Of a stretch of DNA of 64,000 nucleotides, positions 43,301 to 46,300 are shown piece after piece. Origin of the DNA: Escherichia coli (GTDB taxonomy: Bacteria; Pseudomonadota; Gammaproteobacteria; Enterobacterales; Enterobacteriaceae); NCBI RefSeq assembly GCF_003018115.1, contig NZ_CP027458.1; one strand, given 5' to 3'. Made by a program: the position numbers. Numbering within the stretch: position 1 is the stretch's first letter; every line of letters starts with the position of its first letter.

Positions 43301-46300
43301 TGTACGCCATAACGGAGACAGTGAGAAAAACGGCAAGGCAAATAACATGGAGGGGGATGTATCAGTGGTTATTGAAGGTTGACCCGCTGAAATGCGTGCG
43401 GTGCGGAAGTCAGATACGTTTTACGGGACTTAAGCGGGGATACCGTCTGGCAGAGCCTGATGCACAAGCCGCTGGCACGAATGCTGTGGTGCGGCTGAGA
43501 GCCGCAGAGGGGAAGCTACGTCCATGTTGAGGGAAACGGAGCAAAAAAGCCTCATTCATACCCTGTATCAATCAGTGTCACCCGGTTTAATAGTCATTTC
43601 CGTTCATATGGAGCACAAGGAGTTTTGAAGAAACATCCGTTTTGTGGTGTTTTTTTAATCTTTTGGGAATTTTAATTCCTGTCGTTCAGGCAGAAGAAAC
43701 AGATGAATGCTCTCTGTGACAGCCATATTGTCACGGGGCTTAATACCGTTTGTTAAAAAACGTACTTTGCGTACGGTTGGGCTTCAGACCCTGTAAACGC
43801 CAGGCAGCAGCCGTGGTTAAGATAATGTTCAACGGCAACCGCCTCCCAAATTCTGGTCTGACAGGTAATAGGTGTTGGCTCCGCGCTTGCCGTTGGTGGT
43901 TGTTCTGGTAACGGTGATTTGCCCTGCCTGTTCCAGTATCTGAATTGCCCGCTTAACACTCTGTCGACTAATACCGGAGAGGCTTACCAGTTCAGTGATT
44001 GAGATTTGATTTTGTCCGGCAGCAATGACGCTGGCGATTACACACAGGATTGAATTTGTCGTTTTCAATGTCAGCGCTCCTTATCCTGCCAGGCCATGTT
44101 TTTTCTTGCAGCTGTCTGGATGTCGTCCGAAGGTCATCGAATTATAGTTCAAAGAAAAAAGATATCGAGCAATGCGCGTTCTTTTTCTCCTTATGCCGCG
44201 TCAGCGGCATGGAAGGCGGCACTCCGTTGTTGCATATGGTACTGGAGTAAAACCGCCGAAGCCCGGCGTAAGCCGGTACTGACTAATAGATTTCACCTTA
44301 CCCATCCCCGCCCTGCTAAGCCATACCCGCTGTCAGCCATGATGAAGTAAGAGTGCGCGGTCGGAGTGGTCCCGACGAGGGTTTACCCGAAGTCGGGGCG
44401 TATCTCCGCGTTAGCGGGCCGTCAGGGCCGCTTACGAGCGTGTACTGAGGACTTCCAACCATAAGACTGACAGCGACGATGCTGCTTAGTTACAACATTC
44501 ATAATTAAAAGCGACTCTGTTCCGGCCCTTTGGGCCGGGGCGGGGCCGCTTTTCAGTTATGAGGGAGGGGCTTTGTGGTTTCAGTTCTGCGTGGGACCGG
44601 GGTTTTTCTGGTGGTTGTGTTTGAGTGTTGTAACTAAAGTGGCTCCGGTCGGGGCCCGCCGCTTGCGGTGGGAGGTGCATATCTGTCTGTCCATAGGACA
44701 GGCAGTGAATAGGTTTTCTTTTTAAATGAATGTAATTAAGTAGTTTAAAGGAGATATAAACAGGTGTTTAAAAGATACATTGCACCCTGTAAGACTGGCG
44801 GCTGGCGCTTTATGGCATGAACGGTTGTAACCTTATGGTGAAGTCCCTTGCAATTAAATGTGGATAAACAAAATTCCACGTCTGTGAGGCGTGTTTTGTA
44901 TCAAAAACAGGGGGAGCGGATGCACCAGAAGCTGGATGATGAGATTGTTTTTTGGGATGTGGTGCTGATTTTTTGTGCGCTGTCGGGCTTCAGACGTGCG
45001 GAAGCCCGACAGCGCGGGCCGGATTATTCAGATGAGGTCAAACTCAGGGGGAGGCTGTGGCCAGCCGTGTGTAGTTGTTGTTCCGCGACATTATCATGCG
45101 TTCCTTCACGCGACGGTCGATTTCGCGCTTCACCGCCTCCAGGCTTCCTCTGAAGCGCCCTTCCGCGATTTCACGCGTCAGCTGCCGTTTCACCAGGGTG
45201 ACGATATCCTGACGTTCCCTGTTCGCATCACGACGCGCACGGGCACGTTTTATTCCCCGGGACTTAAGCTCTGTCTGGTAACTGCGGAAACGCTCACGGA
45301 CAAAACGCCAGGCTTTCGCTATCAGTTCATCCATACCCAGGGTATCCAGCCCCTGCTTTTTGCGCTGTCTGTTTTCCCATTCAACACGACTGCGGCGCGC
45401 AGCCGCCACTGCATCCTCAGACACATCAAGGGCAGCAAACAGAGCCGGTGTGAACGTGATGTCGGTCGGAATGTAGCACCCAATAAGCGGATCATATTCC
45501 GTCTGGTAGGTAATCAACCCCAGCTCTGACAGGAACGTCAGGGCACGGGTGGCACGGGTGATGGAGAGTTTTCCGGCAGCAGACTCCGTCGCCAGTCCGC
45601 ACTCAATGGCCAGTGTGGTGATGGAGCACTGGACGCGGTTGGCCAGCGGGTCATAGTGGAAACACAGCCCCTGCAGGAGCGCATCAATAGCCCGTCGACG
45701 CAGCACCGGTGGCATGCGCCGACGCAGACCACGCGAACGGGCATGCGCCACATGAATAGCGAAATCAAAACGGGAAGTGAAGCCCACCGCCTTTTCCATC
45801 AGTTTTTCGCAGAACTTCAGCGTTCCGGCACCTTTACGGGGTGTAAACACCGGATTCGGGTTCTTTACCTGGCGGTAATACGTTTGTTGAAGATCAGTCA
45901 CACCATCCCGCACTTACAATGCGCAGAAGGAGTGAGCACAGAAAGAAGTCTTGAACTTTTCCGGGCATATAACTATACTCCCCGCATAGCTGAATTGTTG
46001 GCTATACGGTTTTTAGATGGCCCCGGTAATCTTCTTAGTCGCCAAACTTGTCGAAGATTATCGGGGTTTTTGCTTTTCTGGCTCCTGTACATCCACATCA
46101 GAACCAGTTCCCTGCCACCTTATGGCGTGGCCAGCCACAAAATTCCTTAAAACGATCAGCAATCTAACATCTCATCACTGATACAGCAAGAAACGCAAAT
46201 ATTCACAAAGATTTTCTGCGCTTAACCTCTGACTCTATCAGCCACTCAAGCATCTGTGCCTGAGTGATCCCGTCTTCATCAGCAAGCTCACTTAACTTTT

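What the first reader, a model, noticed from the sequence alone, without database searches (positions are those of the whole stretch)
44380..44700. Cluster of GC-rich perfect hairpins in the region downstream of repA1
Several short GC-rich palindromes occur within about 300 bp (for example ccggccc-ttt-gggccgg, and gcgggccgtcagggccgc), in contrast to the surrounding sequence. They could be origin-associated structures, terminators, or remnants of a mobile-element end.
Basis: seen in the sequence. Interest (0 to 1): 0.2.

Follow-up and report, generated by a model that had tools for sequence, protein, structure and literature searches.

The report
Native IncFII terminus and priming hairpins
The GC-rich hairpins are not inserted DNA: they are conserved single-strand DNA structures of the standard IncFII plasmid replication module, lying around its two Tus-binding terminator sites and just before the primase start site. 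The region is ordinary and already mapped, but one hairpin is fused to a terminator site in a way that may be worth testing.

Summary
Window 44190-44710 is colinear with R100 (~93% identity) and is carried by more than 5000 plasmids in the collection.

- **Position.** The region lies between oriR (~44681-44868) and the primase start zone (G site, ~44190-44322).
- **Ter sites.** It holds two exact, inverted Ter cores, terRL (44618-44640, +) and terRR (44483-44505, -). These are the known R1/R100 fork trap.
- **ccggccc-ttt-gggccgg.** This is the tip of a roughly 28-bp hairpin (44498-44563). It is supported by compensatory changes and is selected on the + strand, the leading-strand template.
  - It always abuts terRR and is absent from the Ter-less lineages.
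  - Its base pairs the first eight Ter positions, including the lock cytosine C6.
- **gcgggccgtcagggccgc.** This is an imperfect arm of a nearly invariant three-way junction (44355-44441, +). IncI1 plasmid R64 carries the same junction.

Only one hairpin is perfect, so "several perfect hairpins" overstates the case. Conservation and covariation show the structures are real; counting palindromes does not. The mobile-element reading is refuted, and a terminator reading is weak.

The region is already known. The Ter-hairpin coupling is the only lead that may be new.

The parts
44681..44868 (-). oriR (approximate 188-bp minimal origin); DnaA box TTATCCACA at 44860-44868 (-), A+T-rich TTTAAA repeats at 44721-44772
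   Evidence: DnaA box and A+T-rich repeats read. Colinear with R100. The 188-bp extent counted from the DnaA box is from memory of Masai et al. 1983, so the right-hand boundary is approximate.
44683..44705 (+). Inverted repeat CTGTCTGTCC-ATA-GGACAGGCAG at the outer edge of oriR
   Evidence: I3. A hairpin occupies the same place in distant loci with a different sequence, GCGGAC-nnnn-GTCCGC.
44655..44672 (+). Hairpin H-L: CCCGCCG-CTTG-CGGTGGG, between oriR and terRL
   Evidence: Conserved in nearly all relatives, including Ter-less ones and IncI1 R64, with compensatory changes (CCCGTCGC/GCGATGGG, CCCGCCA/TGGCGGG, CCCGTTGC/GCAATGGG). The + strand is usually the more stable one.
44618..44640 (+). 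terRL-type Tus-binding site TGTTTGAGTGTTGTAACTAAAGT; oriented to stop forks moving towards oriR/repA1
   Evidence: Exact core GTTGTAACTA at 44627-44636, with G at position 6. Polarity rule checked on MG1655 TerB/tus. Conserved in relatives. R1 terRL and terRR are described in PMC10331603.
44564..44617 (.). Spacer between the Ter sites, G-rich on the + strand; variable in sequence and length among relatives
   Evidence: GC skew +0.3 to +0.5. Inter-Ter length is 55-182 nt and not a multiple of three.
44498..44563 (+). Middle stem 44515-44521/44539-44545 carries four G.T wobbles. Basal stem AAAAGCG/CGCTTTT lies at 44507-44513/44547-44553. An 8-bp extension pairs TTCATAAT (44498-44505, Ter positions 8 to 1, with C6 at 44500) to GTTATGAG (44556-44563).
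   Evidence: Fold. Covariation: 21 pairs, 91.3% of cells paired, 8 pairs changed on both sides, 0 of 500 shuffles reach this, slid controls 36-62%. Strand choice: 95 G.T cells against 11 A.C cells. Extension: 84% paired against 43-63% when slid, 4 of 8 pairs compensated. Always adjacent to terRR and absent from the Ter-less lineages.
44483..44505 (-). terRR-type Tus-binding site ATTATGAATGTTGTAACTAAGCA (read on the - strand); oriented to stop forks that arrive from the repA1/oriR side
   Evidence: Exact core at 44487-44496, G at position 6. Conserved in 26 of 28 full-length relatives and in R64.
44355..44441 (+). Three-way junction (3WJ), nearly invariant. An outer stem may extend it to 44344-44454.
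   Evidence: Most conserved block downstream of terRR. RNAalifold predicts 29 pairs, 8 with compensatory changes. 39 G.T against 4 A.C cells. The covariance model finds one copy in the window, one in R100, one in IncI1 R64, and one in 27 of the relatives. No Rfam match.
44190..44322 (+). CTG at 44313-44315 is conserved in at least 90% of relatives and lies 366 bp beyond oriR. CTG at 44279-44281 lies 400 bp beyond oriR. Stem-loops at 44193-44210 and 44254-44268.
   Evidence: CTG conservation. CTGCTAAGCC (CTGCAAAGCC in L006 and L023) matches the phage G4 primer start CTGCAAAGCC. Position agrees with the start site lying beyond both ter sites. The figures '380-400 bp downstream of oriR' and 'near the 3' end of repA4' are from memory. 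The R100 repA4 ORF end maps to about 44292.
44486..44680 (-). Truncated remnant of the 'repA4' open reading frame (64 aa here, 128 aa in R100)
   Evidence: The frame is closed by TAA inside the terRR flank. Conservation follows base pairs, not codons.

Best explanation
The interval is the native segment of an IncFII (R1/R100-type) replicon that lies between the origin and the leading-strand start.

Shown here:
- It is colinear with R100.
- It contains an inverted pair of Tus-binding Ter sites, terRL and terRR, arranged so that forks can enter the 140-bp interval from either side but not leave it.
- The GC-rich palindromes are conserved stem-loops that are selected on one strand only. That strand is the window + strand, which is antisense to repA1. 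It is the leading-strand template for the fork that leaves oriR, and the strand that DnaB displaces.

Inferred mechanism:
- After RepA and DnaA open oriR, DnaB unwinds towards lower coordinates. No leading strand exists until primase starts at the G site (~44280-44315), so several hundred bases of the + strand are exposed as single-stranded DNA.
- That DNA folds into hairpin H-L, hairpin H-R and the three-way junction.
- H-R is a functional unit with terRR. It sits on the C6-bearing strand at the non-permissive face and can pair Ter positions 1-8. It therefore most likely tunes the kinetic competition that decides whether the Tus-Ter lock forms.
- The three-way junction travels with the G site rather than with the Ter sites. 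It is most likely part of, or an accessory to, the primase priming signal.
For: Native backbone:
- R100 alignment is colinear from the repA1 stop to about 44189.
- At least 5000 plasmids carry 44300-44720, nearly all at 90-95% identity.

Ter sites:
- Two exact GTTGTAACTA cores lie 140 bp apart and inverted. About 0.1 exact copies are expected in 64 kb.
- Each has G at position 6. Polarity was calibrated on MG1655 TerB/tus.
- The pair is conserved downstream of RepA proteins that are only 76-96% identical, from Klebsiella, Yersinia, Pantoea, Erwinia, Hafnia, Citrobacter and others.
- The literature places R1 terRL and terRR between oriR and the leading-strand start (PMC10331603).

Hairpin H-R:
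- Covariation and strand asymmetry.
- Extension into Ter positions 1-8, with compensatory changes.
- Adjacent to terRR in 26 of 26 genome loci and 91 of 91 distinct metagenome segments.
- Absent in three intact Ter-less lineages, and kept where only terRL is missing.

Three-way junction:
-.

Functional importance and plausibility:
- Transposon insertions in the repA4 region of a plasmid whose replicon is 99% identical to R100 are not tolerated (PMC4398462).
- C6 lies on the leading-strand template, and arrest depends on a race between C6 docking and C6 being captured by base pairing (PMC4499146).
Against: - No experiment here shows that any of these stems forms in vivo, or that it forms as DNA rather than RNA.
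- H-R and terRR are physically adjacent, so a single deletion or insertion could explain their joint absence without any functional link. The sequences compared are related, so the counts are not independent events.
- The extension helix pairs a pyrimidine-rich flank with a G-rich flank, which raises chance pairing. The shuffle control is only moderately exceeded (2-6 of 500).
- The exact position of the R1/R100 G site could not be read from a primary paper. The assignment rests on a 10-nt match to G4, on conservation of one CTG, and on distances recalled from memory.
- A global alignment of G4 oric with this region is not significant.
- The role of the three-way junction is a guess from its position and from what it co-occurs with.
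Confidence: 0.75

Rival explanations
1. The hairpins are transcription terminators. In particular, H-R would be a two-way intrinsic terminator that keeps transcripts out of oriR and away from the Tus-Ter complexes.
For: H-R is a long GC-rich stem flanked by AAAA on one side and TTTT on the other. The strand asymmetry (G.U allowed on the + strand) would suit an RNA read towards oriR. The terminator scan finds more terminator-like sites in 43500-46600 than in shuffles, 9 against 3.3.
Against: - The scan did not call H-R itself.
- Only four T follow the stem, and the stem continues beyond them for 8 more pairs into the Ter site. That is not terminator anatomy.
- H-L and the three-way junction have no T run.
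- No + strand promoter was found upstream, and the neighbouring genes in R100 and in this window run the other way.
- A + strand terminator at this spot lies after terRR for such transcripts, so it would not protect terRR.
- H-R is absent exactly where terRR is absent, even though oriR is still there.
Confidence: 0.12
2. The three-way junction and H-R together form a small RNA gene on the + strand, with H-R as its terminator.
For: Both structures are selected on the + strand and are compatible with G.U pairs. The junction is about as conserved as a functional RNA would be. H-R follows it on the same strand.
Against: No Rfam family matches. No promoter-like site lies upstream on the + strand, either in the window or by eye in the consensus of relatives. 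A Ter site would sit inside the transcript. In Ter-less lineages the junction persists without H-R, that is, without its supposed terminator. The G site on the same strand gives a DNA-level reason for the strand bias.
Confidence: 0.06
3. The palindromes are a scar or terminal repeat of a mobile element inserted downstream of the origin.
For: An IS91-family transposase fragment (43051-43530) and a break of homology with R100 at about 44185 lie nearby.
Against: The whole interval 44189-45044 is colinear with R100, occurs in more than 5000 plasmids and is conserved across Enterobacterales and in IncI1 R64.
Confidence: 0.01
4. The conservation reflects the coding sequence of the RepA4 protein, and the hairpins are incidental.
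For: R100 has a 128-codon ORF across the interval, and many plasmid annotations name it repA4 (PMC2762410).
Against: The ORF is cut to 64 codons in this window. The distance between the Ter sites varies from 55 to 182 nt and is not a multiple of three. Substitutions fall on paired positions and are compensatory rather than three-periodic. From memory of Jiang et al. 1993, translation of repA4 was not the cause of the stability defect.
Confidence: 0.02

Closest known systems
terRL / terRR fork trap of plasmid R1/R100 (Hill et al. 1988; Krabbe et al. 1997; reviewed in PMC10331603)
   Same: Two inverted Tus-binding sites lie between oriR and the leading-strand start, in the same position and orientation. 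The sequence is about 93% identical to R100.
   Different: Nothing essential differs: this is another copy. The accessible literature does not describe the hairpin fused to terRR.
Primase-dependent priming signal (G site) of R1/R100, and the complementary-strand origin of phage G4
   Same: Stem-loops lie on the leading-strand template. A conserved CTG sits in a 10-nt match to the G4 primer start, at the distance from oriR reported for R1.
   Different: There is no overall sequence similarity to G4. Whether the three-way junction at 44355-44441 belongs to the G site is unresolved.
Chromosomal Tus-Ter sites of E. coli (TerB) and the C6 'mousetrap' lock
   Same: Identical core, G/C at position 6, and the same polarity logic.
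   Different: At the plasmid's terRR, the C6-bearing strand can pair positions 1-8 into an adjacent conserved hairpin. TerB in MG1655 shows no such neighbour in the 60 nt read. This was not examined systematically.
IncI1 (R64/ColIb-P9) replicon
   Same: It shares the cassette H-R, terRR, three-way junction and G site. By eye the aligned columns are nearly all identical to R100.
   Different: The initiator and origin are different, and there is no terRL. The cassette looks exchangeable between replicon families.

Membership tests
IncFII (R1/R100) basic replicon, post-origin 'repA4' region | Colinear with the R100 sequence downstream of repA1 (CIS region, oriR, ter sites, G site) | tested here: met
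   Pairwise alignment with NC_002134.1: 89% mean column identity overall. It is continuous from the repA1 stop to window ~44189, with only 1-2-nt gaps.
IncFII (R1/R100) basic replicon, post-origin 'repA4' region | Flanked by the IncFII control elements (RepA1, tap, CopA RNA, RepA2/CopB) | tested here: met
   RepA1 ORF at 45044-45901(-). CopA RF00042 at 45986-46075, 98 bits. Annotation of the closest plasmid lists tap and the regulatory RepA.
Tus-binding Ter site | 23-bp consensus with G/C at position 6 and the core GTTGTAACTA at positions 10-19 | tested here: met
   44483-44505(-) and 44618-44640(+) both carry the exact core and G6, compared with TerB read from MG1655.
Tus-binding Ter site | Binds Tus and arrests forks in one direction only | not testable with these tools
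   Shown for R1 in the literature. Inferred here from near-identity.
Primase-dependent G site (G4 type) | CTG initiation triplet with local similarity to the G4 start, on the leading-strand template, beyond the ter sites | tested here: met
CTG at 44313-44315 is at least 90% conserved. CTGCTAAGCC resembles G4 CTGCAAAGCC.
Primase-dependent G site (G4 type) | The hairpins inside 44380-44700 are part of the sequence that primase needs | tested here: inconclusive
   The three-way junction always accompanies the G site, but it lies on the 3' side of the start on the template. The primary papers could not be read.
Primase-dependent G site (G4 type) | Priming by primase, SSB and polymerase III alone on single-stranded DNA | not testable with these tools
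   Requires an in vitro single-strand initiation assay.
Intrinsic (rho-independent) terminator | GC-rich stem followed directly by a run of U, with the transcript ending there | tested here: inconclusive
   H-R has four T after the basal stem on each strand, but the stem continues beyond them. It was not called by the scan. H-L and the three-way junction have no T run.
Mobile-element terminal repeat | Present only where the element is inserted; absent from the empty site in relatives | tested here: not met
   Present in R100, R64 and all relatives examined.
Any curated RNA family (Rfam 15) | Covariance-model match | tested here: not met
   No match in 44100-44800 at E <= 1. Only CopA, sok and a weak PK-repZ match lie elsewhere.

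The most novel reading that the evidence does not exclude
The hairpin fused to terRR would be a built-in switch for the Tus-Ter lock. When DnaB alone unwinds from oriR at initiation, no polymerase follows it. The displaced + strand folds, and the stem zips over Ter positions 1-8. This captures the lock cytosine C6 (44500) before it can dock into Tus. The barrier is then only transient, and the helicase can reach the G site. That would explain how an R1-type plasmid initiates through a terminator that faces the wrong way. When the complete fork returns after one round, the leading-strand polymerase has already copied the partner arm. The hairpin cannot form, C6 locks, and the fork stops. The opposite sign is also possible: the hairpin could delay the polymerase and so favour locking. 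Either way it would be the first cis element shown to tune a Tus-Ter barrier.
Probability: 0.15. Interest if true: 0.65.

Novelty: already known. Interest (0 to 1): 0.3.

Why it matters
For the scan itself this is a negative result. The interval is standard IncFII backbone with known Ter sites, not a novel insertion. Annotators should label it as cis-acting replication DNA rather than as a 'repA4' gene.

Three points have some wider use.
- The module H-R, terRR, three-way junction and G site is a cassette shared by IncFII and IncI1 replicons. These are the main carriers of resistance genes in Enterobacterales.
- Transposon data show that the region is needed for maintenance, so these structures are candidate targets or markers.
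- The conserved pairing between a hairpin and the lock cytosine of terRR gives a concrete way to ask how these plasmids initiate across a fork barrier that faces the origin.

Tried and rejected
- **Similarity to phage G4.** BLAST of the region against 50,697 phage records gave only chance hits. Smith-Waterman alignment of G4 oric against both strands scored inside the shuffle range. Only the 10-nt match at the primer start survives.
- **Similarity to the F plasmid ssiA/oriV-2 region.** None beyond 8-mers.
- **Rfam.** No family matches in the interval.
- **Counting perfect GC hairpins as a significance test.** Not significant, so it was dropped in favour of folding z-scores and covariation.
- **Primary papers.** Masai & Arai 1989, Bernander 1992, Jiang 1993, Tanaka 1994 and del Solar 1998 are not held in the library. 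Searches for G-site literature found nothing usable. Statements taken from those papers are marked as memory.
- **A + strand promoter upstream of the three-way junction.** None in the window. A TTGACA-like hexamer in some relatives has no -10 partner (by eye).
- **The RepA4 coding reading.** Rejected.
- **The CTG at 44446-44448, next to the three-way junction, as the primer start.** Rejected as the conserved start because the triplet is not conserved in relatives.
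Full report
**What is at the coordinates.** repA1 is the 285-codon ORF at 45044-45901 on the - strand. 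'Downstream of repA1' therefore means lower coordinates.

A scan for perfect GC-rich stems of at least 6 bp finds only the first of these in 44380-44700. That count is not unusual: 23 of 500 shuffles reach it, and so do 8.9% of equal-sized windows of the 64 kb. Folding gives a clearer signal. As single-stranded DNA the + strand of 44340-44470 folds to -29.7 kcal/mol (z = -3.70), while its complement reaches only -20.1 (z = -0.75). 44500-44645 gives z = -2.45, and 44630-44710 gives z = -1.9.

**Native or inserted.** Aligned with R100 (NC_002134.1), the window is colinear from the repA1 stop codon to about 44189, with only 1-2-nt gaps. At least 5000 PLSDB plasmids carry 44300-44720, nearly all at 90-95% identity, and CP057835.1 matches exactly.

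**The Ter sites.** The window has exactly two perfect copies of the Ter core GTTGTAACTA. They lie 140 bp apart and inverted, at 44487-44496 (-) and 44627-44636 (+). About 0.1 exact copies would be expected in 64 kb. The full 23-mers are ATTATGAATGTTGTAACTAAGCA (44483-44505, read on the - strand) and TGTTTGAGTGTTGTAACTAAAGT (44618-44640, +). Both have G at position 6.

I calibrated polarity on MG1655. There TerB reads AATAAGTATGTTGTAACTAAAGT on the + strand directly upstream of tus, and TerB stops clockwise forks (established knowledge). Forks that travel 5' to 3' along the GTTGTAACTA strand are therefore the ones stopped. It follows that 44618-44640 stops forks moving towards oriR, and 44483-44505 stops forks arriving from the repA1/oriR side. 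Forks can enter the 140-bp interval but cannot leave it.

This is the arrangement described for R1. [quoted passage not shown]

**Relatives.** A scan of one genome per species with RepA1 returned 31 loci whose RepA is 76-96% identical. They come from Klebsiella, Yersinia, Pantoea, Erwinia, Hafnia, Citrobacter, Serratia and others. In 26 of 28 full-length loci the inverted Ter pair is present at the same distance from repA.

**The hairpin next to terRR (H-R).** From base to tip it runs as follows.
- AAAAGCG (44507-44513) pairs with CGCTTTT (44547-44553).
- CTCTGTT (44515-44521) pairs with GGCGGGG (44539-44545) through four G.T wobbles.
- CCGGCCC pairs with GGGCCGG at the apex.

On an alignment of 28 relatives, the 21 pairs are formed in 91.3% of cells. 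Eight pairs show changes on both sides, for example CCGGCCC, CCGGGCC and CCCGGCC each with its matching partner. None of 500 shuffles reaches the observed values, and sliding the partner arm drops pairing to 36-62%. There are 95 G.T cells on the + strand against 11 A.C cells. The structure is therefore selected on the + strand and not on its complement.

The stem also continues outward. TTCATAAT (44498-44505) is the + strand of Ter positions 8 to 1 and includes the lock cytosine C6 at 44500. It pairs with GTTATGAG (44556-44563). In most relatives this helix reads TCCATCAT/GTGGTGGG, and further compensated forms occur: TCCGCCAT/GTGGCGGT, TCCGTCAT/GTGACGGT and TCCATTAT/GTGATGGG. On 15 distinct types, 84% of cells pair against 43-63% when slid, and 4 of 8 pairs change on both sides. 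Between 2 and 6 of 500 shuffles reach the observed measures. This support is moderate, because a G-rich arm pairs easily with a pyrimidine-rich one.

**Co-occurrence of H-R and terRR.** Every one of the 26 genome loci with terRR has H-R at a fixed spacing. An exact-pattern scan of metagenome contigs for the core of the three-way junction gave 104 distinct segments. All 91 with terRR have a hairpin directly next to it: 89 are at or below -28 kcal/mol and 2 are weaker.

Three intact lineages lack terRR, and all three also lack H-R while keeping the junction and hairpin H-L. They are Izhakiella L020, Serratia L031, and the group L073/L075/L092/L094/L096/L101/L108/L157. Replicons that lack only terRL keep H-R with terRR. 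Examples are IncI1 R64, L019 and several metagenome contigs.

Two caveats apply. The two elements touch each other, so one deletion removes both. The sequences are also related, so the counts are not independent events.

**The three-way junction (3WJ).** RNAalifold on 21 distinct sequences predicts 29 pairs in three stems. Eight of the pairs have compensatory changes, and there are 39 G.T cells against 4 A.C cells. Again this points to the + strand.

A covariance model built from the alignment finds one copy in the window (128 bits), one in R100, one in 27 of the relatives, and an almost identical copy in IncI1 plasmid R64 (130 bits). R64 shares with R100 the whole cassette from H-R through terRR and the junction to about window 44185, and by eye the aligned columns are nearly all identical. 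It has a different origin and no terRL. Rfam has no family for the junction.

**Where priming starts.** I could not read the primary papers. From memory, the R1 leading strand starts at a primase-only 'G site' 380-400 bp downstream of oriR, near the 3' end of the repA4 frame. From memory too, plasmid G sites resemble phage G4 only near the primer start.

What the tools show is this. Counting 188 bp from the DnaA box (44860-44868) puts the oriR boundary near 44681. The R100 repA4 ORF ends at about window 44292. Two CTG triplets lie on the + strand at 44313-44315 and 44279-44281, which are 366 and 400 bp beyond oriR. The first is conserved in at least 90% of relatives although its surroundings vary. 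It also sits in CTGCTAAGCC (CTGCAAAGCC in L006 and L023), which matches the G4 start CTGCAAAGCC at the annotated primer origin. Conserved stem-loops lie on its template-5' side at 44193-44210 and 44254-44268.

The three-way junction lies between the G site and terRR.

**Other hairpins.** CCCGCCG-CTTG-CGGTGGG (44655-44672, H-L) and the inverted repeat at 44683-44705 are also conserved by structure, with compensatory changes. This holds in Ter-less lineages and in R64 as well.

**How it most likely works.** Shown: the strand bias, the covariation, the positions, and what each element co-occurs with. The rest is inferred.

All the structures lie on the strand that DnaB displaces when it moves from oriR towards the G site. 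Until primase acts there is no leading strand, so this strand is exposed and can fold.

The junction travels with the G site and not with the Ter sites. It is best explained as part of, or an accessory to, the priming signal, for instance by keeping SSB off or by positioning primase.

H-R travels with terRR and can pair the C6-bearing strand at the non-permissive face. Work on Tus-Ter shows three relevant things: C6 is on the leading-strand template; permanent arrest needs C6 to dock into Tus; and the outcome is a race between docking and capture of C6 by base pairing (PMC4499146). A hairpin that can zip over positions 1-8 is placed to bias that race.

One attractive reading concerns initiation. 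At that stage a bare helicase must cross terRR in the blocking direction to reach the G site, and hairpin capture of C6 would make the barrier transient. The returning full replisome has already copied the partner arm, so it would be locked. The reverse effect, in which the hairpin stalls the polymerase and favours locking, is equally compatible with the data. Neither has been tested.

**Rivals.**
- **Terminators.** H-R has A and T runs, but only four T, and the stem continues past them. The other hairpins have none. No + strand promoter or gene feeds into them.
- **A + strand small RNA.** There is no promoter and no Rfam match. In Ter-less lineages the junction survives without its supposed terminator.
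- **RepA4 coding.** The frame is cut to 64 codons here, the Ter spacing is not a multiple of three, and substitutions follow base pairs.
- **Mobile-element remnant.** Refuted by colinearity.

**Functional importance.** In pEC958 the IncFII replicon is 99% identical to R100. There, saturating transposon mutagenesis finds the repA4 region among the nine elements needed for stable maintenance (PMC4398462). From memory, this agrees with the instability of NR1 repA4 insertion and deletion mutants reported by Jiang et al. 1993.

**Verdict.** This is an ordinary, already mapped part of the IncFII replicon. Two things may go beyond what is written about this region: the evidence that the hairpins are conserved strand-specific structures, and the observation that one of them is structurally fused to terRR. 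I could not check the older literature well enough to claim that either point is new.

Noticed in passing
L038 (R64, NC_005014.1) 1950-2450, compared with window 44185-44565: IncI1 plasmid R64 carries the cassette hairpin, terRR, three-way junction and G site. By eye the aligned columns are nearly all identical to R100, yet its initiator, its origin and the DNA on the origin side of the hairpin are unrelated, and terRL is missing. This looks like an exchangeable module shared between replicon families.
   Followed up: partly
L007 ~3930-4100, L033, and metagenome locus L079: About 200 bp is inserted between terRR and the three-way junction. It carries an inverted repeat (TGTCAACTTCTGAATCG ... 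CGATTCAGTGGTTGACA) around a GGGGCCCC-type hairpin, followed by a second CCCTGC(T/A)AAGCC motif like the G-site start. In L033 the junction itself is degenerate.
   Followed up: no
window 44977-45015: A perfect 15-bp inverted repeat, GCGCTGTCGGGCTTC / GAAGCCCGACAGCGC, with a 9-nt loop lies between the repA1 stop and oriR. This is the position of the CIS region and its transcription terminator in R1 (from memory).
   Followed up: no
window ~44185, 43829-44068(-), 43051-43530(+): Homology with R100 ends at about 44185, just beyond the probable G site. The adjacent DNA has a 79-aa helix-turn-helix ORF with a promoter-like site (TCGATA-16-TATAAT, 44168-44141, - strand) and then a fragment of an IS91-family transposase. 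This is the real mosaic boundary.
   Followed up: partly
window 44486-44680(-): The 'repA4' frame, 128 codons in R100, is closed after 64 codons here by a TAA inside the flank of terRR. This argues that repA4 is not a gene, although many plasmid records annotate it as one.
   Followed up: partly
L003/L004 (R100) gene orientations; window + strand: In R100, repA1 has the same orientation as the tra operon and as the leading-region genes ssb and psiB. By inference, the strand antisense to repA1, which carries the G site and all the hairpins, is the strand transferred during conjugation. The same structures might then also prime complementary-strand synthesis in recipients.
   Followed up: no
L008, L009, L011 (genome contigs): IncFII replicon contigs with RepA 78-95% identical to the query are filed under a Lachnospiraceae MAG, Streptomyces morookaense DSM 40503 and a Candidatus Nanosynbacter MAG. 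This is almost certainly contamination or mis-binning of enterobacterial plasmid DNA.
   Followed up: no
metagenome loci L073, L075, L092, L094, L096, L101, L108, L157; also L027 ~3880-3960: This replicon lineage has the three-way junction and an H-L-like hairpin but no Ter sites. Instead it carries a different conserved block (GACGCATCCGGCGTGGCCGGATTTGTCCAATCCCTCGACGGCTAACAGG...), followed by a DnaA box-like TTATCCAC and an A+T-rich stretch. Part of this block also appears in Pantoea locus L027 beside terRL.
   Followed up: no
window 46883-47038(-) and 45986-46075(+): sok antitoxin RNA (RF01794, 93 bits) with a hok-type ORF nearby, and CopA antisense RNA (RF00042, 98 bits). These are standard IncF maintenance and copy-control elements flanking the replicon.
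   Followed up: no
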